From the NCBI GenBank assembly GCA_023379025.1, contig JAMCTH010000003.1, forward strand, positions 103,362 to 167,361: a stretch of 64,000 nucleotides of DNA. Reading direction: 5' to 3'. How positions within the stretch are numbered: the stretch's first letter is position 1; every line of letters starts with the position of its first letter. Below the pieces are notes generated by a model, which worked only from the letters and a program-made list of their open reading frames with translations, searched no databases and was not told the origin of the DNA. Source of the DNA: Patescibacteria group bacterium (GTDB lineage Bacteria; Patescibacteriota; Microgenomatia; UBA10105; UBA927). Made by a program: the position numbers and the translations under genes. Shown piece by piece: positions 1 to 64,000 of this stretch.

Positions 1-321
1 CTGACGCGAGCCGTTTACGAGAAGTTTAAGCGATCCTTGTTCTTCGTTCACACGGATCAGCCGGTTATATGTTGATGATGTTATCAATCGGGTTTGGGGG
101 TAAAGATAGGACAATAGAGACATAAATAATTGCCGGGCGTAGAAATTGGTTGATAGACATCGGAAATTCGGTAACGAAATTCGAAAATGGAGATGAGAAA
201 CAAAATCTATTATCGATTTTCAATGTTTCATTACGAATTACCGTTTTTATATTCCGATTTTCAAATCGAACCATTCGCTCTATCCGAACAATTTAACAAT
301 ATAACAATTTAACAATTCTCA

Positions 322-1563
322 TTATTCTCTTTTTATGACTTTCAAACCCATATACGGCTGGAGTGCTTCCGGGATATTCACCGATCCGTCCGCGTTCTGG
401 TAGTTTTCGAGGATCGCAAGCGGCGTCCGTGACGTGGCAATGGCCGTACCGTTCAGCATGTGAAGATACCCGACCGCACCTCCCTTTCTACGGACGCGGA
501 TATTGAGATTTCTGGCCTGATAATCCGTACAATTGGACGTAGAAGTCACCTCTCCGTATTCGCCCCGGGTCGGCATCCAGGCCTCTATGTCAAACTTTCG
601 GGCAGCCATGGCGCCCAGATCTCCGGTGCACATCTCGAGCACCCGGTACGGGAGCCCTAACCCCTGGTAGATCTTTTCCTCCATGGAAAGGAGGAGTTGG
701 TGCATGTGCTCTGATTCTTCAGGAGCGCAGTAAACAAACATCTCCGCTTTCGTAAACTCATGGACACGGTAGAGACCTTTTGAGTATTTCCCGTAGGCGC
801 CTGCCTCCTGCCGGAAGCAGTGAGAGTACCCGATATACTTGAACGGGAGATTCCCCTCCGGGATCACTTCGTCTGCGTGTTTACCCGCAAGCGTTACCTC
901 AGCCGTTGCGATCAAGCCTAAATCTTCTCCTTCAAGGGTATATGTTTGTGCTTCATTGCCTCTCGGCATATAGCCGGTTCCCAGATAGTAGCGGGATTTG
1001 GCAACATCCGGGGTAATAACCGGCACAAACCCTTCCCGTGCGAGAAGATCGAAGGCATAGCGGACCAGAGCAAGCTCCATGAGCGCGCCTTCGCGGTATA
1101 AAAAGTAAAACTGCGAACCGGCGACCTTGGCACCGGTGTCAAAATCAAGGATTCCGAGCGCCTTCCCGAGTTCAAGGTGGTCCTTGGGGGTAAAATCAAA
1201 TTTCCTGGGTGTCCCCCATTTGCGGACTTCAACGTTTTCCTTTTCGTTTTTCCCGACCGGTGCATCCTTGGAAGGAAGATTCGGAATCTGCGCGATGGTC
1301 CGACCAAGTTCTTCTTCCGTCTTGGCAAGTTCCGGTTCCCTGGCTTTGATCGCTTCCTTGACGGCTTTTCCTTCGGCAGAAACTTTACCTGCTTTGGCGA
1401 TTTCGTTCCGTTTGGCGCGGAGTTCCTCAAGTTCGCCAATCAGTTTTCGCCGTTTGGCATCAAGCGCCAGGACATCGTCTACAGTGTCCGGGTCAAAACC
1501 TTTGGCGGCAATGCCCTTTTTCACCTCATTCGGATTCTCTCTGACAAGTTTGATATCGATCAT
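322..1563 (-). CDS. serS: Seryl-tRNA synthetase
   Basis: 413 aa. N-terminal coiled-coil tRNA-binding arm (MIDIKLVRENP...), then a class II aaRS core with motifs such as GYSHCFRQEAG and GTAIATSRT. Confidence 0.93.
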   Translation of the reverse strand: MIDIKLVRENPNEVKKGIAAKGFDPDTVDDVLALDAKRRKLIGELEELRAKRNEIAKAGKVSAEGKAVKEAIKAREPELAKTEEELGRTIAQIPNLPSKDAPVGKNEKENVEVRKWGTPRKFDFTPKDHLELGKALGILDFDTGAKVAGSQFYFLYREGALMELALVRYAFDLLAREGFVPVITPDVAKSRYYLGTGYMPRGNEAQTYTLEGEDLGLIATAEVTLAGKHADEVIPEGNLPFKYIGYSHCFRQEAGAYGKYSKGLYRVHEFTKAEMFVYCAPEESEHMHQLLLSMEEKIYQGLGLPYRVLEMCTGDLGAMAARKFDIEAWMPTRGEYGEVTSTSNCTDYQARNLNIRVRRKGGAVGYLHMLNGTAIATSRTPLAILENYQNADGSVNIPEALQPYMGLKVIKRE

Positions 1564-1575
1564 GTTACCTCCATT

Positions 1576-2214
1576 TTAGCAAAAATCCCTCGGCGATTCC
1601 TTAGCCAGTGCAGCCCGTATAAATGGCTTAAGTTCTTCCAGTGCCTTTTTCCTGTGGTTGATCGATTCATTTTCTTCCGGCGTCAGATCGTCATGATTAT
1701 AAAACTTGTTAAACCGGGGAAGATACAAGAGGGAACGGTACGGATACCCAGCGATCCTGGCAGCAGAGGGCGTAAGAGGAATGATGCCGCAAACCGAGGC
1801 TTCGGCCGTATGCATCTTCCCGCCGGGAGTCGAAAAGGCGATGACAACGCGAAGCTTTGCCCCGCGATTTTGGAGCGGGACGCCCTTAAGCCTTTCCATT
1901 GTATACGCGATGAGTTCTTCGTCCTCATCTTCGCGGTCGCCGTGTATCCACCGGTGCGATTTCACCCCGGGCTCTCCCCCCAGTGCGTCTATCTCAAATC
2001 CGCCGTCATCTGCGATGGTTGGCAGTCCTGATTTGTCCGCATAGAATTTTGCTTTAAGCACTGCGTTTTCCTCAAATGTTTTCCCCGTTTCCTCCGGTCT
2101 GTCGATAATGTTTTTATCATCCAAACTCATAAGTTCTATGGGCATATCAGATAAAAACTCTTTAATTTCTGCCAATTTCCCGGGGTTAGTTGTAGCTATA
2201 AGAAGCTGTTTCAT
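1576..2214 (-). CDS. rdgB: Non-canonical purine NTP pyrophosphatase (RdgB/Ham1 family)
   Basis: 212 aa. N-terminal ATTNPGKLAEI signature of the Ham1/ITPase family. 12 nt downstream of serS on the same strand. Confidence 0.8.
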   Translation of the reverse strand: MKQLLIATTNPGKLAEIKEFLSDMPIELMSLDDKNIIDRPEETGKTFEENAVLKAKFYADKSGLPTIADDGGFEIDALGGEPGVKSHRWIHGDREDEDEELIAYTMERLKGVPLQNRGAKLRVVIAFSTPGGKMHTAEASVCGIIPLTPSAARIAGYPYRSLLYLPRFNKFYNHDDLTPEENESINHRKKALEELKPFIRAALAKESPRDFC

Positions 2215-2226
2215 ATTCAGTTTTCG

Positions 2227-2544
2227 TCATTCTGGCAATCCGCCGGCTGGCGGAGTGTCCAGAATCGAGTTATATAAGTCTCTCAGTAATGGGTTATGCT
2301 TTCGGATTAATCCTAACTTTTCACTTCTCTTCATATCCTTAATTTGTTTTTCCCTTATGATAGCATTTCGAATATCGTCAAACACTTCGTAATAGACGAG
2401 CGCGTGTAGACCGTATCTTGCAGTAAAGCCAAATGGGTCAGAATTACGTTTGTGTTGATAAACTCGTTTCACTAGGTTGCTTGTTACTCCTGTATAGAGT
2501 GTTGGACGAGTGTTTGCCATGATATAAACATATCCGGTTTTCAT
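2227..2544 (-). CDS. Stand-alone GIY-YIG nuclease domain protein
   Basis: 105 aa. GYVYIM...LYTGVTSNLVKRVYQHK is the GIY-YIG core seen in UvrC N-terminal-like and small endonucleases. Confidence 0.75.
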   Translation of the reverse strand: MKTGYVYIMANTRPTLYTGVTSNLVKRVYQHKRNSDPFGFTARYGLHALVYYEVFDDIRNAIIREKQIKDMKRSEKLGLIRKHNPLLRDLYNSILDTPPAGGLPE

Positions 2545-2587
2545 ACGGATTCTGGGTGCGCTCGGGGACTCGCTTACCAGAATGACG

Positions 2588-3169
2588 CTACAACCCCAGT
2601 TCCTCGTGGTGAACTTGCATCGAAGAAAGTGTTATTTGTATAAATTCATCAACCGGTATCCCAAGTTTTTCTTCGCATTGTGCTATCTGTTCCCGGGCAA
2701 CCGCGGCTGCAAATGCCTTTTGTTTCCATTTCTTTTGAACTGATTCAACAGTCACAAGATCGAGTTTCTTTTCCGGCCGGACCAAGGCAACGGCGACTAT
2801 AAACCCGGTAAGCTCATCCACCGTTTCAAGCGCCCATTCCATAGCTCCCTCAAGCTCTGCGAGGTGCGTTCTTTTTCCGTTATGGGATTTAAGCGCATGA
2901 ACGATCGGGCCCTCCGTTTCTCCGAGTTCATGAAGCCATGAAAGCGTATGCTTCGTGTGCTCGTCAGGACTGTCTTTCGTTTCTTCCCAATCCGCGTCAT
3001 GGAGTAAGCCGAGAATCTCCCACTGATCCGGGTCGCCACCGAGCTTCTCCGCAAGGGCGCGCATGGCAAACCCTACCGCGTACATATGACGCCGGAGGTT
3101 CTGGTTTTGGGTGTGGGCATGAAGAAGATCAAGTGCCTGATTTCTGGTGATCATAAGCTCATGTGACAA
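2588..3169 (-). CDS. HD-domain phosphohydrolase
   Basis: 193 aa. H...HD motif (LLHDADWEE) and conserved His residues typical of the HD superfamily. Confidence 0.7.
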   Translation of the reverse strand: MSHELMITRNQALDLLHAHTQNQNLRRHMYAVGFAMRALAEKLGGDPDQWEILGLLHDADWEETKDSPDEHTKHTLSWLHELGETEGPIVHALKSHNGKRTHLAELEGAMEWALETVDELTGFIVAVALVRPEKKLDLVTVESVQKKWKQKAFAAAVAREQIAQCEEKLGIPVDEFIQITLSSMQVHHEELGL

Positions 3170-6507: not shown

Positions 6508-7131
6508 TCACTGATTGTCGCCAACTAATACGACGTCTCTTTCTAATAATCTATCCGGAAACGGTAAACCCCGTTTGACAAACTCAGGTTTGCTCTTCTC
6601 AATAACATCCTCGATTTTTGATTGTGTAATAAGTATTGTGGACGCCTCAACACGATCATCAACACTTATTAGTATTTCACCGGCCGCTACCCTCTCGATA
6701 ATTGTCTGTGCCCAGGAGACCTGTTTTTCCCACCGAATCGCCATCTCCTTTTCTCCCTCATGAAAGTCGGGGGTATGCGCTCTCATGGGATCCGCAATCC
6801 CGGGCATTACGACTGTATTAAATCTATGCCGTGAGCCATACGTATCAGCATAATTAGCTCCTAAAGCATTGCTTAATCTGTCTATCATTCTGGTGGGGTC
6901 ATCGGAAGTAGGTAATAGTCCATGTTCAAATCTAAAGAGAGCTATCAGCCGAGCGATGGGACGAGGGAGTATAGTCATTATTGCCCTATCTATTTTCCGT
7001 AGCTCTGGTGTTGGCGGTAGCATCTGACGAACGGCCCAACCGATTTGGTCACCGAGGTAATCTCTATCCCCTTCTGCCATATATGAGATTGTATCAGTAA
7101 AGAATGAATCGACAAACATGTTCGATTTCAT
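6508..7131 (-). CDS. Hypothetical protein, last gene of the island operon
   Basis: Long ORF of about 200 aa from MKSNMF with no family motif recognised. The start is uncertain (ORF extends to 7230). Confidence 0.4.
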   Translation of the reverse strand: MKSNMFVDSFFTDTISYMAEGDRDYLGDQIGWAVRQMLPPTPELRKIDRAIMTILPRPIARLIALFRFEHGLLPTSDDPTRMIDRLSNALGANYADTYGSRHRFNTVVMPGIADPMRAHTPDFHEGEKEMAIRWEKQVSWAQTIIERVAAGEILISVDDRVEASTILITQSKIEDVIEKSKPEFVKRGLPFPDRLLERDVVLVGDNQ

Positions 7132-60818: not shown

Positions 60819-61205
60819 ATGTTTAACCCCCTTACGGATGAAGAACGGCAGGTAATTGAGGGAAAAGCCACAGAACCGCCATTTTCCGGCGAGTACGATA
60901 ATTTTTACCGGGAAGGGACCTATATCTGCCGGAAATGCAACGCTCCCCTTTTTTCATCACGGGCGAAGTTTGATGCAGGGTGCGGCTGGCCCGCATTTGA
61001 CGAGAACTACCCGGATGCAGTATGCCGTACACCCGATCCGGACGGACGCCGAACCGAAATATCCTGCAAACACTGCGGAGCCCACCTGGGACACGTATTT
61101 GTCGGAGAACGGTTCACCCCGAAAGATACGCGCCACTGCGTCAACTCACTGTCCATCAATTTCATCCCTACCGGATCAATGATTCCGGAGCTCATAACAT
61201 CGTAA
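60819..61205 (+). CDS. msrB: Peptide-methionine (R)-S-oxide reductase MsrB
   Basis: About 128 aa from MFNPLTDEE. CxxC ...CxxC zinc pairs and catalytic RHCVNS. Confidence 0.9.
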   Translation: MFNPLTDEERQVIEGKATEPPFSGEYDNFYREGTYICRKCNAPLFSSRAKFDAGCGWPAFDENYPDAVCRTPDPDGRRTEISCKHCGAHLGHVFVGERFTPKDTRHCVNSLSINFIPTGSMIPELITS

Positions 61206-61210
61206 ATTCC

Positions 61211-61229
61211 GGTAGTGGGTCAATTTGAA
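61211..61229 (+). repeat. Left terminal inverted repeat of the transposon
   Basis: GGTAGTGGGTCAATTTGAA, immediately after the TAAATTCC duplication that includes the msrB stop codon. Confidence 0.75.
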
Positions 61230-61230
61230 A

Positions 61231-61431
61231 TCAATCAACGGAAGGTTTGAGTGAGACAATCATTTCCCGATTGATAACTACCGAATGCTCGGTATGCTTT
61301 TGTTCGAAGGTAACGAAGCGGTTTTGTTCAATTTTCTTCCGGACAGTTAATAAATCATCTTTTACCGTTACGCTGTCTTTTGTAACGAGTTCAATAATAG
61401 TACCCATACATATTACATTATAGCAAAACAA
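61231..61431 (-). CDS. Hypothetical small protein inside the transposon
   Basis: 66 aa ORF. No motif. Confidence 0.25.
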   Translation of the reverse strand: MFCYNVICMGTIIELVTKDSVTVKDDLLTVRKKIEQNRFVTFEQKHTEHSVVINREMIVSLKPSVD

Positions 61432-61992
61432 TAATAGCGATCATTTTCTCATCTCTTTTTTCCAAAATATATAAACTATATACGATAAGCAGCCCACAAC
61501 CACAAGTTCAAATCCAAATAACTTCCATACGATAAGAGAGAGTATAAGTGTAAAATAGAAACTATCTACAAAAGACTCGAAAAACTTTTTCATTAAAATT
61601 GATTATACCACTTTTCCTCGAGGCTAAAATTTGACACTCAAGAAAAATGATGTAGTATACTGGTTTTGTAACCGGAGACGGCTCACCTAATAACTGTTAA
61701 CACCTAGTCAGTGTTAAAATTGCGGGTTATACCGCACTATTACATACCGCTTCAGTCCGTCTTTTGACGGAGGAAGCGGTTTTACTTGTGCAAATACGCA
61801 CACCGCATCTCACCTCCTTTACAGTATGGGTAACTACGTGCCCATAAATCCCCAAAAAATAGGCTGTAGGCCACTTCTGTAAAGACAGTTTTCGGTGAGC
61901 CGCTCCGATGCGGAGTATACCACTTTTTACCAGTACTTTCGAGGCTAAAATGACGTTTTTTGCACGACTTATAAACGGCTTGCTAAATCAAT

Positions 61993-62835
61993 CTAATCTA
62001 CAATTTTTATTATATCCTCAATCTTCCAAATCCTATCGGTTACTCCCGCCGCCATTGCCGGTGTTTTTCCGAACGAACGTTTCAGGTTCAAAGACTTATG
62101 CGCTCGGCAGAAGTTGTAGTACATGAAATGGAGCGCTACGGCGGCTTCTAGGTTCTGTATTTTCTTTGAGAATGCGTTTGTCAGACGGGTGAAACGCCGC
62201 ATACCCATTCTCATCGTGAGATTTTGCCGCTCTACATAACTTGTGGATACTTTCGTCATATCGGGCTTTCCTTGTATGACATGCTTTTCTGAAGCGATAC
62301 ATTCTGACGGGCTGTATCGTGTATCACCTTCTTGTTGCGGCCCGTACAATTTTACCAACGTGCCATAGTCTACTTCAGAACCAAACGCTTCTTCTATGGC
62401 CCAGAGATATGGTCTATGACCATCCGTAGTAATCTGTACCCGATTAGCAAGCCGACTCTTGAGGTCTTGCATAAACTCGTTTGCGCAAACGGCGTCTCGT
62501 CGTCCGATAAGCCAGCTTGGTACGAGTTTCGTATCAGCATCGAGCGCCGTCCATGTCCATACGTCCCCATATCCGAACTCGCCTTTATGTGCTTCCGGTA
62601 CATTTTTGTCTTTGGCATAGCAGAATGACCAGATTTCATCACACTGTATGTGTTTGCATGGGAGGTTACGAAACACTTTGTCCTGATATTCGGCACATGC
62701 TTGGCCAACAGAGGCAAGAAGACGGGTTACAGTCCCTTTCGCTATCCCCGTCATACGGCACGTGGCACGGATTGAGTTACCTTCTACAAGGCATGTAATT
62801 ACTCTTGTTTTCTCCTCAAGGTTTAATGCGTTCAT
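61993..62835 (-). CDS. IS1-family transposase (fused InsA-InsB type)
   Basis: 280 aa. N-terminal HTH VITCLVEGNSIRATCRMTGIAKGTVTRLL (InsA-like), IQCDEIWSF (InsB DE..WS motif), ITTDGHRPY, and C-terminal ERQNLTMRMGMRRFTRLTNAFSKKIQNLEAAVALHFMYYNF resembling IS1 InsB [24 protein letters not shown]...HY. Confidence 0.85.
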   Translation of the reverse strand: MNALNLEEKTRVITCLVEGNSIRATCRMTGIAKGTVTRLLASVGQACAEYQDKVFRNLPCKHIQCDEIWSFCYAKDKNVPEAHKGEFGYGDVWTWTALDADTKLVPSWLIGRRDAVCANEFMQDLKSRLANRVQITTDGHRPYLWAIEEAFGSEVDYGTLVKLYGPQQEGDTRYSPSECIASEKHVIQGKPDMTKVSTSYVERQNLTMRMGMRRFTRLTNAFSKKIQNLEAAVALHFMYYNFCRAHKSLNLKRSFGKTPAMAAGVTDRIWKIEDIIKIVD

Positions 62836-62903
62836 ATGGTCTTATTATACTTGACCGCTCAAGCATTGTCGGGGGGTATTTTCTAATGTGGTACAATGCG
62901 GGT

Positions 62904-63194
62904 ATGGTCGATATTAAAAAACCCACAGACGTTGCGAATGATATTGCTAAAGCGCAAAAAGTCTATGAAAGCTTAGGAGAAGAGTTTGTTAAGGCTAATA
63001 ATGGTAAGTTCATTTCTGTTGAACCAACCTCTGGAGAACATTTTGTAGGTAATACAAGAGAAGAAGCTGTTAAACTCGCAAACGCTAAATATAAGGGAAA
63101 AGTAGTTTTTACTCGAAGAATAGGAACATTAGAAAAAGTTGCCCTTCATTCTTCCCTAACTTTGGGCGGAAACGTATATGCTAGCTTATTTTGA
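62904..63194 (+). CDS. DUF5678-like small protein (cargo)
   Basis: About 96 aa from MVDIKK. NGKFISVEPTSGEHFVGNTREEAVKLA...GKVVFTRRIG resembles the small partner proteins found beside clan AA aspartic protease genes. Confidence 0.45.
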   Translation: MVDIKKPTDVANDIAKAQKVYESLGEEFVKANNGKFISVEPTSGEHFVGNTREEAVKLANAKYKGKVVFTRRIGTLEKVALHSSLTLGGNVYASLF

Positions 63195-63588
63195 CGCCCA
63201 AGATGGAAGTGCAAAGGTAGTCATAAAAATTAGAGCCTCTAAACGAAAGCCAAAGGAAATAATCGCCTTATTAGATACAGGTCATAATGGTAGTTTATCT
63301 TTACCTCTTTGGGATTTAATTGAAATTGGGGCAAAGCTAAAAAGCTTTGAGCCAGTAGGCTTAGCTGATGGAAGAGAAGTAATAATGTACTTCTTTGAAG
63401 TAAAAGTCGAAATGGATGGCGTTGAAAAAGTAGTGTTAGCCAGTATGATAGAAAATCCTAAAATTAAGGAGGCTATTGTCGGGTTAGAATTACTTTCGCC
63501 ATATATTGCCTTTATAGATTTCAAAAATAAGAAGATTGATATTACTACGGAAGCACAACTTAAGAAGGATTTAGTCGCTAAAAAATAA
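63178..63588 (+). CDS. Retropepsin-like (clan AA) aspartic protease (cargo)
   Basis: 136 aa. ALLDTGHNGSLSLP contains the D-T/S-G catalytic motif in the expected N-terminal position of single-domain retropepsin-like proteases. The start overlaps the upstream gene. Confidence 0.6.
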   Translation: MLAYFDAQDGSAKVVIKIRASKRKPKEIIALLDTGHNGSLSLPLWDLIEIGAKLKSFEPVGLADGREVIMYFFEVKVEMDGVEKVVLASMIENPKIKEAIVGLELLSPYIAFIDFKNKKIDITTEAQLKKDLVAKK

Positions 63589-63777
63589 TTATTTACCCCA
63601 ACGCTTTATAGCAGCTTTTTTTGCTATTTCTATTCTTCTTTTTTCAGTTAATTTTGCCGCCCGTGCTTTACCACCAACCAAACCGCCAAGCCTTCCAAGA
63701 GCAACAGCCGCAGGATTTTTCTCATGTGTTGCCTCTCGCACAATTTTTCCAGCGAGTTTGTTTATATCCATGACCAT
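63589..63777 (-). CDS. Small basic Ala/Lys-rich protein, possible DNA-binding (cargo)
   Basis: 62 aa. ALGRLGGLVGGKARAAKLTEKRRIEIAKKAAIKRWGK is a basic helical tail. Confidence 0.35.
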   Translation of the reverse strand: MVMDINKLAGKIVREATHEKNPAAVALGRLGGLVGGKARAAKLTEKRRIEIAKKAAIKRWGK

Positions 63778-63818
63778 AGGGTATCATGAGGATACATGAG
63801 CGGTCAAGAAGCCTAGAG

Positions 63819-63837
63819 TTCAAATTGACCCACTACC
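63819..63837 (-). repeat. Right terminal inverted repeat of the transposon
   Basis: TTCAAATTGACCCACTACC on the plus strand is the exact reverse complement of the left TIR. Followed by TAAATTCC. Confidence 0.75.
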
Positions 63838-64000
63838 TAAATTCCGTATTTCTCGATAAGCACCCGTTTACAGTGATATAATAATCCCGTCAGAAAGCTA
63901 CATTGCCGGATCGTCTAACGGCCTGCCCGCAGTGCTACGCAAGCGTTGCAGGCGGGTAGTATTTATGAAATTTTATTATACGTATGTTCTGAAAAGCTTA

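What the first reader, a model, noticed from the sequence alone, without database searches (positions are those of the whole stretch)
61203..63845. Complete IS1-family transposon with TSD, perfect TIRs and three cargo genes inserted at the msrB stop codon
The 8 bp direct repeat TAAATTCC flanks a 2627 bp segment bounded by the 19 bp perfect inverted repeat GGTAGTGGGTCAATTTGAA. The left duplication contains the TAA stop of msrB. The only transposase inside is IS1-like (InsA HTH plus InsB DE..WS and C-terminal ERQNL...HFMYYNF). TIRs starting GGT and 8-9 bp duplications are IS1 hallmarks. IS1 elements are normally about 0.8 kb without passengers, so a 2.6 kb IS1-bounded unit carrying a DUF5678-like gene, a retropepsin-like protease and a basic protein is unusual. 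An intact TSD suggests recent insertion.
Basis: partly seen in the sequence, partly recalled or inferred. Interest (0 to 1): 0.7.

Follow-up and report, generated by a model that had tools for sequence, protein, structure and literature searches.

The report
Cargo-carrying IS1-family transposon in Patescibacteria
This is a complete, intact jumping gene of the IS1 family that carries extra genes; it belongs to a large, little-described group found in many bacterial phyla, so it is real but not unique.

Summary
A 2,627-bp segment (61211-63837) is bounded by perfect 19-bp inverted repeats and a perfect 8-bp duplication, TAAATTCC. The left copy of the duplication holds the msrB stop codon.

The element is one member of a very large clade of IS1-related elements. 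In 106 complete relatives from more than ten phyla, the same terminal repeat (GGTAGTGGGTCA[A/G]TTTGAA) bounds elements of 1.8-5.0 kb, and 92 of 103 have a perfect 8-bp duplication. Cargo is therefore the rule in this clade.

- The 62-aa basic protein is not cargo. It is a conserved core gene next to the left end (60 of 61 relatives).
- "DUF5678-like" is not supported. The protease call is weakly supported.
It holds an exceptionally structured 235-nt non-coding region (z about -7 to -9, no Rfam match, no homologue) and two orphan small ORFs.

Cargo in relatives is mainly toxin-antitoxin-like modules. About 30% of relatives carry tRNA genes.

Verdict: new member of a known kind, with family-level features I did not find described in the papers searched.

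The parts
61203..61210 (.). Target-site duplication, copy 1 (TAAATTCC). It contains the msrB TAA stop codon.
61211..61229 (+). Terminal inverted repeat at the transposase-distal end (IRR), GGTAGTGGGTCAATTTGAA.
   Evidence: conserved in relatives
61231..61407 (-). Orphan 58-aa ORF (annotated hypothetical M1555_01095). Its stop lies 1-2 nt from IRR.
   Evidence: only itself among 5.8 billion proteins; absent from 169 related loci
61441..61593 (-). Orphan 50-aa hydrophobic ORF with two hydrophobic stretches and charged ends.
   Evidence: no family; absent from relatives
61601..61630 (-). Direct repeat copy B, an extended -10 promoter-like box (TGGTATAAT) just upstream of the 50-aa ORF.
   Evidence: (D5, D8)
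61631..61658 (+). Promoter-like site TTGACA-16-TAGTAT reading into the structured region on the + strand.
61674..61908 (.). Highly structured non-coding core (235 nt). A 13-14-bp closing helix encloses a multi-hairpin junction. The strand is undecided.
   Evidence: no Rfam match; no homologue
61913..61951 (-). Direct repeat copy A, promoter-like TCGAAA-17-TATACT with a TG extension, reading into the structured region on the - strand.
61993..62835 (-). Single-ORF DDE transposase, 280 aa, with an N-terminal helix-turn-helix. D66, D138 and E202 align with the IS1 InsB catalytic triad.
62844..62872 (-). Transposase promoter (CCGACA-17-TATAAT). Its spacer holds the clade-conserved 14-bp palindrome CTTGAsCGsTCAAG (62850-62863). 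The ATG follows 8 nt after the -10 box, which implies a leaderless mRNA.
62904..63194 (+). Cargo gene 1: a 96-aa protein of unknown family, whose end overlaps the next gene by 17 nt.
   Evidence: pair shared with L011, L014 and L172
63178..63588 (+). Cargo gene 2: a 136-aa retropepsin-like aspartic protease (DTG motif).
   Evidence: (TIGR03698, 2.4e-9, below cut-off)
63589..63777 (-). Core gene: a small basic all-helical protein (62 aa; the likely start is the third codon, MDINKLA). Motif KNPAAVALGRLGGLxGGKARAxKL...KAAxxRW.
63803..63808 (-). Conserved -35-like CTTGAC, 30 nt inside IRL, the presumed promoter of the small basic gene.
63819..63837 (-). Terminal inverted repeat at the end upstream of the small protein and transposase (IRL).
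63838..63845 (.). Target-site duplication, copy 2 (TAAATTCC).

Best explanation
The segment 61211-63837 is a complete, apparently intact member of a widespread clade of IS1-family transposable elements that always carry extra DNA (a "transporter IS", or small unit transposon).

Shown here:
- Its single-ORF DDE transposase is remotely but specifically related to IS1 InsB.
- Its 19-bp ends are the clade's conserved ends.
- Insertion duplicated 8 bp of an A/T-rich target that matches the clade's preferred S-A-A-A-W-T-T-S octamer. The msrB stop codon was regenerated.

Architecture, in transposase orientation:
1. IRL.
2. A promoter and a conserved small basic helical protein.
3. Variable slot 1, here an antisense two-gene operon of a 96-aa protein and a retropepsin-like protease.
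4. An operator-bearing promoter and the leaderless transposase gene.
5. Variable slot 2, here a 235-nt highly structured non-coding region with its own promoter-like boxes, plus two orphan small ORFs.
6. IRR.

Inferred, not shown:
- The transposase binds the ends through its N-terminal helix-turn-helix and makes 8-bp staggered target cuts, as in IS1.
- The small basic protein, the transposase N-terminus, or both repress through the 14-bp palindrome in the transposase promoter.
- The protease pair is an addiction or defence-type module, like most cargo in relatives.
- The structured region is a cargo RNA gene.
For: Ends and duplication.

Transposase family:
- NCBIfam IS1 model, E 9e-17; Pfam DDE_Tnp_IS1 above its gathering score.
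- A profile of the clade aligns to the InsB of IS1 from plasmid R100 at probability 81%, E 1.3e-5. The invariant residues D66, D138 and E202 fall on the IS1 DDE residues.
- Homologues are named "IS1 family transposase" (one as ISNisp5) by NCBI and JGI.

Clade behaviour:
- 106 complete elements are 1,781-4,969 bp long with the same terminal repeat; 92 of 103 have perfect 8-bp duplications; the duplications share a consensus.
- Only the transposase and the small basic protein are conserved.
- Cargo includes P63C, SocA/Panacea, Xre-HTH, Gp49/HigB, NYN, ImmA/IrrE, PIN and RES-Xre.
- The same protein-protease pair occurs in three other elements (L011, L014, L172).
- The transposase promoter with its palindrome is present in 83 of 105 elements.

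Structured region: a unique outlier in folding energy, z -8.6 and -7.1 against -3.6 to +1.6 for the 45 windows outside 61600-61760.

tRNA genes inside relatives: 31 of 106 by ARAGORN, with 11 matches above the Rfam gathering score in the 16 loci searched. RNA genes are therefore ordinary cargo for this clade.
Against: - No empty site and no second copy was found, so mobility of this particular copy is inferred.
- The NCBIfam IS1 score is below the curated cut-off (61.6 vs 100). Pairwise BLAST to InsB aligns only the C-terminal motif.
- The transposase -35 box is degenerate in this copy (CCGACA, against TTGACA in relatives).
- The functions of the small protein, the protease pair and the structured region are untested.
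- The structured region folds equally well on both strands with few G-U pairs and has no homologue, so there is no covariation support for an RNA.
Confidence: 0.9

Rival explanations
1. The transposase belongs to a shorter IS with its own ends close to 61.9-62.9 kb, and the outer 19-bp repeat and 8-bp duplication are coincidental.
For: None found. Classical IS1 is about 0.8 kb (background knowledge).
Against: - No inverted repeat flanks the transposase alone.
- The outer repeat is conserved in 106 relatives with 8-bp duplications.
- The distance from IRL to the transposase start is never below 643 bp.
- The 19-mer occurs only twice in the window; 0 of 100 shuffles gave two or more matches.
Confidence: 0.01
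2. The structured 61600-61960 segment is not an RNA gene. It acts at the DNA level or is junk: a nested palindromic (MITE-like) insertion, a recombination scar or a duplicated promoter region. The two small ORFs are then non-coding.
For: - The two strands fold almost equally (-97.5 vs -99.8 kcal/mol), with only 2-5 G-U pairs.
- A 13-14-bp outer inverted repeat is flanked by imperfect direct repeats.
- There is no homologue in 169 related loci, viral contigs or the rest of the window.
- p58 is an orphan.
- The colinear relative L172 diverges exactly at the transposase stop.
Against: - It is single-copy, which is not MITE-like.
- Promoter-like boxes point into it on both strands.
- Relatives carry genuine RNA genes in the slots next to the transposase.
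- The fold is a multi-branched junction rather than one long palindrome.
Confidence: 0.3
3. The right-hand module is a type I toxin-antitoxin-like cassette. The 50-aa hydrophobic peptide is the toxin, translated from a long structured leader that starts at the 61942-61914 promoter. A convergent antisense RNA from the + strand promoter (61631-61658) is the antitoxin.
For: - The peptide is 50 aa with two hydrophobic stretches.
- Promoter-like sites face each other across a region that is fully base-paired on either strand.
- Cargo in relatives is dominated by addiction modules.
Against: - A second promoter-like box (TGGTATAAT, 61604-61612) sits directly before the peptide and would give an mRNA with no antisense target.
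- There is no similarity to any known type I family.
- There are no homologues.
Confidence: 0.12
4. The copy is a fixed, no longer mobile relic (or is domesticated), and its intact look is fortuitous.
For: - It is the only copy seen.
- The identical insertion appears in two independent sequencing runs.
- Its transposase -35 box is weakened relative to the clade consensus.
Against: - The ends and the duplication are perfect.
- The transposase is full length and keeps all residues that are invariant in the clade.
- Its G+C is still about 10 points below the host's.
Confidence: 0.1

Closest known systems
IS1 of Enterobacteriaceae (copy in plasmid R100 fetched here, L175)
   Same: - A DDE catalytic core that aligns residue for residue at D, D and E.
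- A shared ERxNL...FSK motif.
- Ends that start GGT(A/G)(A/G)TG.
- 8-9-bp target duplications.
- A small basic gene next to IRL, expressed from a promoter at that end.
   Different: - IS1 is 768 bp and has two frames (insA, insB) fused by a -1 frameshift.
- InsA has a zinc finger.
- Here there is one 280-aa ORF with no zinc finger.
- The small IRL-proximal protein is unrelated to InsA.
- The element carries 1.6 kb of extra DNA.
- Pairwise similarity is confined to 46 residues.
Single-ORF and long subgroups of the IS1 family in ISfinder (ISMhu11 group, listed as 0.9-4.6 kb; ISNisp5). The subgroup description is from my memory of the ISfinder/TnPedia tables, not checked here.
   Same: - NCBI names a 72%-identical homologue "IS1 family transposase ISNisp5".
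- Single ORF, 8-bp duplication, greater length, passenger genes.
   Different: I could not consult ISfinder. I do not know whether the conserved small basic protein, the operator-bearing promoter or the tRNA cargo are recorded there. None of these appears in the papers searched.
Transporter IS (tIS), as defined for the IS1595 family and others (Siguier, Gagnevin and Chandler 2009, cited in PMC3129680 and PMC7986276)
   Same: A single transposase and one pair of IS-type ends enclose passenger genes unrelated to transposition.
   Different: In most families a tIS is an occasional variant of a short IS. In this clade every one of 106 complete elements carries extra DNA, in two defined slots.
Toxin-antitoxin-carrying unit transposons (Tn3 family). 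This comparison is from background knowledge.
   Same: A transposon used as a vehicle for addiction modules.
   Different: There is no resolvase or res site, no 38-bp ends and no 5-bp duplication. The transposase belongs to a different family.

Membership tests
IS1 family | DDE transposase homologous to IS1 InsB | tested here: met
   - NCBIfam NF033558, E 9.3e-17 (below the curated cut-off: 61.6 vs 100).
- Pfam PF03400, 25.4 bits against a gathering score of 24.1.
- hhalign against R100 InsB: probability 80.7%, E 1.3e-5, with the DDE residues aligned.
IS1 family | Terminal inverted repeats starting GGnnnTG | tested here: met
   The repeat starts GGTAGTG and is conserved in 106 relatives. The family consensus itself is from background knowledge.
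IS1 family | Target duplication of 8-9 bp | tested here: met
   8 bp here; 92 of 103 relatives also have 8 bp.
IS1 family (classical IS1 group) | Two reading frames, insA and insB, joined by a programmed -1 frameshift | tested here: not met
   There is a single uninterrupted 280-aa ORF, and homologues are 278-284 aa.
IS1 family (classical IS1 group) | N-terminal zinc finger followed by a helix-turn-helix | tested here: not met
   A helix-turn-helix is present at residues 4-41 (Pfam HTH_28, E 0.0017). There is no CxxC...CxxC motif and no alignment to InsA.
IS1 family (classical IS1 group) | Length about 0.7-1.2 kb with no passenger genes | tested here: not met
   The element is 2,627 bp, and the clade ranges from 1,781 to 4,969 bp.
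Transporter IS (tIS) | One transposase and one pair of IS ends enclosing genes unrelated to transposition | tested here: met
   The protease pair and the right-hand module lie inside the ends. Cargo is variable among relatives.
Compound transposon | Two complete IS copies flanking the cargo | tested here: not met
   There is one transposase gene, and the only long repeat is the 19-bp end.
Type II toxin-antitoxin pair (for 62904-63588) | Two small co-directional overlapping genes, one from a recognised antitoxin or toxin family | tested here: inconclusive
   - The two genes overlap by 17 nt, and the pair is conserved in four elements.
- Neither protein matches a toxin or antitoxin family.
- The protease gives weak peptidase hits in PADLOC (3.5e-5) and in the PDB (0.014).
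   There is no Pfam hit at E<=0.1, and none is precomputed for its three homologues.
Any described RNA family (for 61600-61960) | Match to an Rfam covariance model or a tRNA/tmRNA detector | tested here: not met
   There are no Rfam hits at E<=1 and only noise at E<=10. ARAGORN finds nothing there.

The most novel reading that the evidence does not exclude
The window copy may represent an IS1-related clade that spans many phyla and has not been described as such. Its features would be:
- an obligatory small helical basic protein at the left end;
- an operator-controlled, leaderless transposase gene;
- two cargo slots used as a shuttle for addiction or defence modules and, unusually for an IS, for RNA genes.

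The RNA cargo would include tRNAs in about 30% of members, among them UUA-anticodon (ochre-suppressor) tRNAs, and in this copy a new 235-nt structured RNA.
Probability: 0.3. Interest if true: 0.65.

Novelty: new member of a known kind. Interest (0 to 1): 0.45.

Why it matters
For this genome, the finding explains a low-G+C, 2.6-kb block of hypothetical genes downstream of msrB as one mobile unit and sets its exact limits.

More broadly, the comparison defines a very abundant group of small transposons. More than 8,000 transposase relatives were scored, and 106 complete elements were analysed. These elements have conserved ends, a target preference, a second core gene and a regulated promoter.

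They move toxin-antitoxin-type genes and tRNA genes between phyla, including the reduced genomes of Patescibacteria. Copies in cultured Mesorhizobium and Acidiphilium plasmids make the group open to experiment.

Tried and rejected
- **Empty site.** Exact look-ups of the transposase and of msrB returned only the same insertion, in two sequencing runs. No empty site was found.
- **Homologues of the structured region.** nhmmer and blastn against 169 related loci, the later loci and the whole window found nothing. A 23-mer scan of viral contigs found nothing. Rfam at permissive thresholds gave only noise.
- **The 58-aa ORF.** A protein search found only the protein itself.
- **The small basic protein.** There was no Pfam or PDB sequence match. 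The AlphaFold model is four helices at mean pLDDT 70, and Foldseek against the PDB gave no match.
- **Strand of the structured region.** Energy and G-U counts did not decide it.
- **Literature.** ISMhu11 and ISNisp5 do not occur in the library, and the 2009 IS1/IS1595 paper is not held.
- **The 12-bp repeat CTTGACCGCTCA.** I considered it as inner ends of the cargo. I rejected this: it is part of the conserved promoter-operator sequences of the small gene and the transposase.
Full report
**1. The observation**

The 19-mer GGTAGTGGGTCAATTTGAA occurs at 61211-61229 and, reverse-complemented, at 63819-63837. These are the only two matches in the 64-kb window even with three mismatches allowed, and none of 100 shuffles gave two matches. 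TAAATTCC abuts both repeats on the outside, at 61203-61210 and 63838-63845.

The msrB ORF (SelR domain, E 4e-41) ends with the TAA that opens the left duplication. The insertion therefore left msrB intact. The enclosed 2,627 bp have 31-49% G+C, against 48-57% in the flanks. The host is an NCBI metagenome-assembled "Patescibacteria group bacterium" (locus tags M1555_, contig 236,824 bp).

**2. The transposase**

The 280-aa ORF at 61993-62835 (-) matches the NCBIfam IS1 model at E 9e-17, which is below its curated cut-off (61.6 vs 100 bits). It matches Pfam DDE_Tnp_IS1 just above the gathering score, and it has a weak N-terminal helix-turn-helix.

I fetched a real IS1 from plasmid R100.
- Pairwise BLAST aligns only the ERxNL...FSK motif.
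- There is no similarity to InsA or its zinc finger.
- A profile of 35 clade members aligns to InsB over 116 columns (probability 81%, E 1.3e-5). This places the invariant D66, D138 and E202 on the IS1 DDE residues.

More than 8,000 database proteins match at E<=1e-5 (the scoring limit was reached). Many are named "IS1 family transposase" and one "ISNisp5". The transposase is therefore a remote, single-ORF branch of IS1.

**3. The outer repeats are the real ends, and the clade always carries cargo**

Close relatives from groundwater and lake metagenomes (L003, L007) carry the identical 19-21-bp repeat at both ends of 2.6-2.7-kb elements with different inner genes. Scans of the genome and metagenome collections gave 160 further loci with 58-88% identical transposases. 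They come from Patescibacteria, Desulfobacterota, Dehalococcoidia, Acidobacteriota, Planctomycetota, Omnitrophota and others.

| Measure | Value |
|---|---|
| Complete elements with GGTAGTGGGTCA[A/G]TTTGAA at both ends | 106 |
| Length range (median) | 1,781-4,969 bp (3,120 bp) |
| Perfect 8-bp duplication | 92 of 103 |
| Duplication consensus | S-A-A-A-W-T-T-S |
| Window duplication in transposase orientation | GGAATTTA |
| Distance from IRL to transposase start | never under 643 bp |
| Distance from transposase end to the outer end of IRR | 18 to 1,937 bp |

This disposes of the "shorter IS, coincidental outer repeat" alternative.

Copies also exist in cultured bacteria, on a Mesorhizobium loti plasmid and an Acidiphilium multivorum plasmid. 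Both are annotated "IS1 family transposase".

**4. What is core and what is cargo**

Clustering all ORFs of the elements shows only two conserved genes: the transposase and a 60-110-aa basic protein. The basic protein starts about 65 bp inside IRL on the transposase strand (60 of 61 elements in the first set). The window's 62-aa "basic protein" (63589-63777) is this core gene.

- It has 3,832 cluster representatives at E<=1e-3.
- It has no Pfam or PDB match. A weak PHROG match covers only its C-terminal motif.
- Its predicted structure is four helices at mean pLDDT 70, with no fold match.
- In Mesorhizobium it is annotated "histone H1".
- Its position mirrors IS1 InsA, but it is not homologous to InsA.

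The transposase promoter is conserved across the clade. It reads TTGACA-17-TATAAT, with the 14-bp palindrome CTTGAsCGsTCAAG in the spacer (83 of 105 elements). The ATG follows 6-8 nt after the -10 box, which implies a leaderless mRNA. The window copy has it at 62872-62844, with a weakened -35 box. A related half-site sits in the promoter of the small gene, 30 nt inside IRL. I infer autoregulation by the small protein and/or the transposase helix-turn-helix. This is not shown.

**5. Cargo slot 1 in the window**

The 96-aa ORF (62904-63194) and the 136-aa ORF (63178-63588) overlap by 17 nt and lie antisense to the transposase.

The 136-aa protein has a DTG motif and gives weak but consistent aspartic-protease matches:
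- TIGR03698, E 2.4e-9, below the cut-off.
- PDB "retroviral-like aspartic protease 1", E 0.014.
- PADLOC peptidase, E 3.5e-5.

The 96-aa protein has no family and only three homologues, so the label "DUF5678-like" is unsupported.

The pair recurs in three other elements of the clade: L011, L014 and L172. L172 is colinear with the window element from IRL to the transposase stop at 71% DNA identity, and diverges exactly there.

Cargo in other members is dominated by addiction or defence-type genes:
- P63C
- SocA/Panacea
- Xre-HTH
- Gp49/HigB
- NYN
- ImmA/IrrE
- PIN
- RES-Xre

By analogy the pair is probably such a module. This is an inference.

**6.

The region 61230-61992 holds a 58-aa orphan ORF, a 50-aa hydrophobic ORF and a non-coding stretch.

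The non-coding stretch folds far better than shuffled sequence (z -6.9 and -8.1). In a 240-nt sliding scan of 60.0-64.0 kb it is the only outlier. It scores -8.6 and -7.1, while the 45 windows outside 61600-61760 range from -3.6 to +1.6.

The core (61674-61908) is a multi-hairpin junction closed by a 13-14-bp helix. Imperfect direct repeats that look like extended -10 promoters flank it. A good promoter-like site also points into it on the other strand.

It has no Rfam, tRNA or tmRNA match. It has no homologue anywhere I could search. Both strands fold almost equally well. I rate "cargo RNA gene" as the most likely reading. A DNA-level palindromic insertion and a type I toxin-antitoxin cassette remain open.

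**7. RNA genes as cargo in relatives**

ARAGORN finds tRNA genes inside 31 of the 106 elements. Most lie 75-130 bp upstream of the transposase on the same strand. Rfam searches of 16 loci confirmed 11 of these matches at the gathering threshold. Two elements (L007, L147) carry a tRNA with anticodon UUA.

This lies outside the window. It does show that RNA genes are ordinary cargo for this clade.

**8. Verdict**

This is a real, complete IS1-family cargo-carrying transposon, inserted cleanly at the msrB stop codon. It is one member of an abundant clade whose transposases public annotation already labels IS1 family.

The concept of an IS with passenger genes is established (PMC3129680, PMC7986276). 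From memory, ISfinder lists IS1-family members of up to 4.6 kb. I therefore file it as a new member of a known kind.

The family-level features were not found in any paper I could search. These features are the second core gene, the operator, the target consensus, the tRNA cargo and this copy's structured region. They are the part that deserves follow-up.

Noticed in passing
Related loci, e.g. L026:3823-3914, L043:3746-3819, L034:3816-3888, L025:3807-3899, L052:3801-3892, L027:1636-1708: ARAGORN finds tRNA genes inside 31 of 106 complete elements of the clade. Rfam searches of 16 loci confirmed 11 matches at the gathering score. Most lie 75-130 bp upstream of the transposase on the same strand. 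The common predicted anticodons are UAU, GCU, UAG and UGC.
   Followed up: partly
L007:7051-7136 and L147 (element coordinates 1989-2064): These are element-borne tRNAs with anticodon UUA, which would read the UAA stop codon (ochre-suppressor type). The L007 copy ends in CCA.
   Followed up: no
L003:~6930-7010 and L007:~6850-6935: A long conserved hairpin (…CGTACGCTCTTG…GGGCGTACAC…) lies between the transposase stop and the tRNA in two elements from different metagenomes. It has no Rfam match.
   Followed up: no
window 62844-62872 (-) and the same position in 83 of 105 relatives: The transposase promoter TTGACA-17-TATAAT is conserved, with the 14-bp palindrome CTTGAsCGsTCAAG in the spacer. The ATG follows 6-8 nt after the -10 box, which implies a leaderless mRNA. 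A related half-site lies 30 nt inside IRL.
   Followed up: partly
Flanks of 92 related elements: The 8-bp target duplications share the near-palindromic consensus S-A-A-A-W-T-T-S, with a mean G+C of 41%. This points to a target preference.
   Followed up: partly
L174:2075-2284 (Mesorhizobium loti plasmid CP050295): The clade's small basic core protein is annotated "histone H1" in a cultured organism. The same KGGxARAxxL...AAxxRW motif opens the P63C-domain cargo proteins of several elements.
   Followed up: no
L028 (contig JAHDQN010000097.1, 3,132 bp): The whole contig runs from one terminal repeat to the other (positions 2-3132). This is the pattern expected when an element is multi-copy, or excised, in that assembly.
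   Followed up: no
window 62887-62906: The cargo operon has an extended -10 box (TGGTACAAT, 62889-62897) 6 nt before its ATG. It too would be leaderless, as would the 50-aa ORF behind TGGTATAAT (61604-61612).
   Followed up: no
L170:4001-4511: A homologue of the 96-aa protein (57% identity) occurs with a shorter 78-aa partner and no IS ends nearby. It sits next to a Mg-chelatase/Lon-like ATPase gene. The pair can therefore exist outside this transposon.
   Followed up: no
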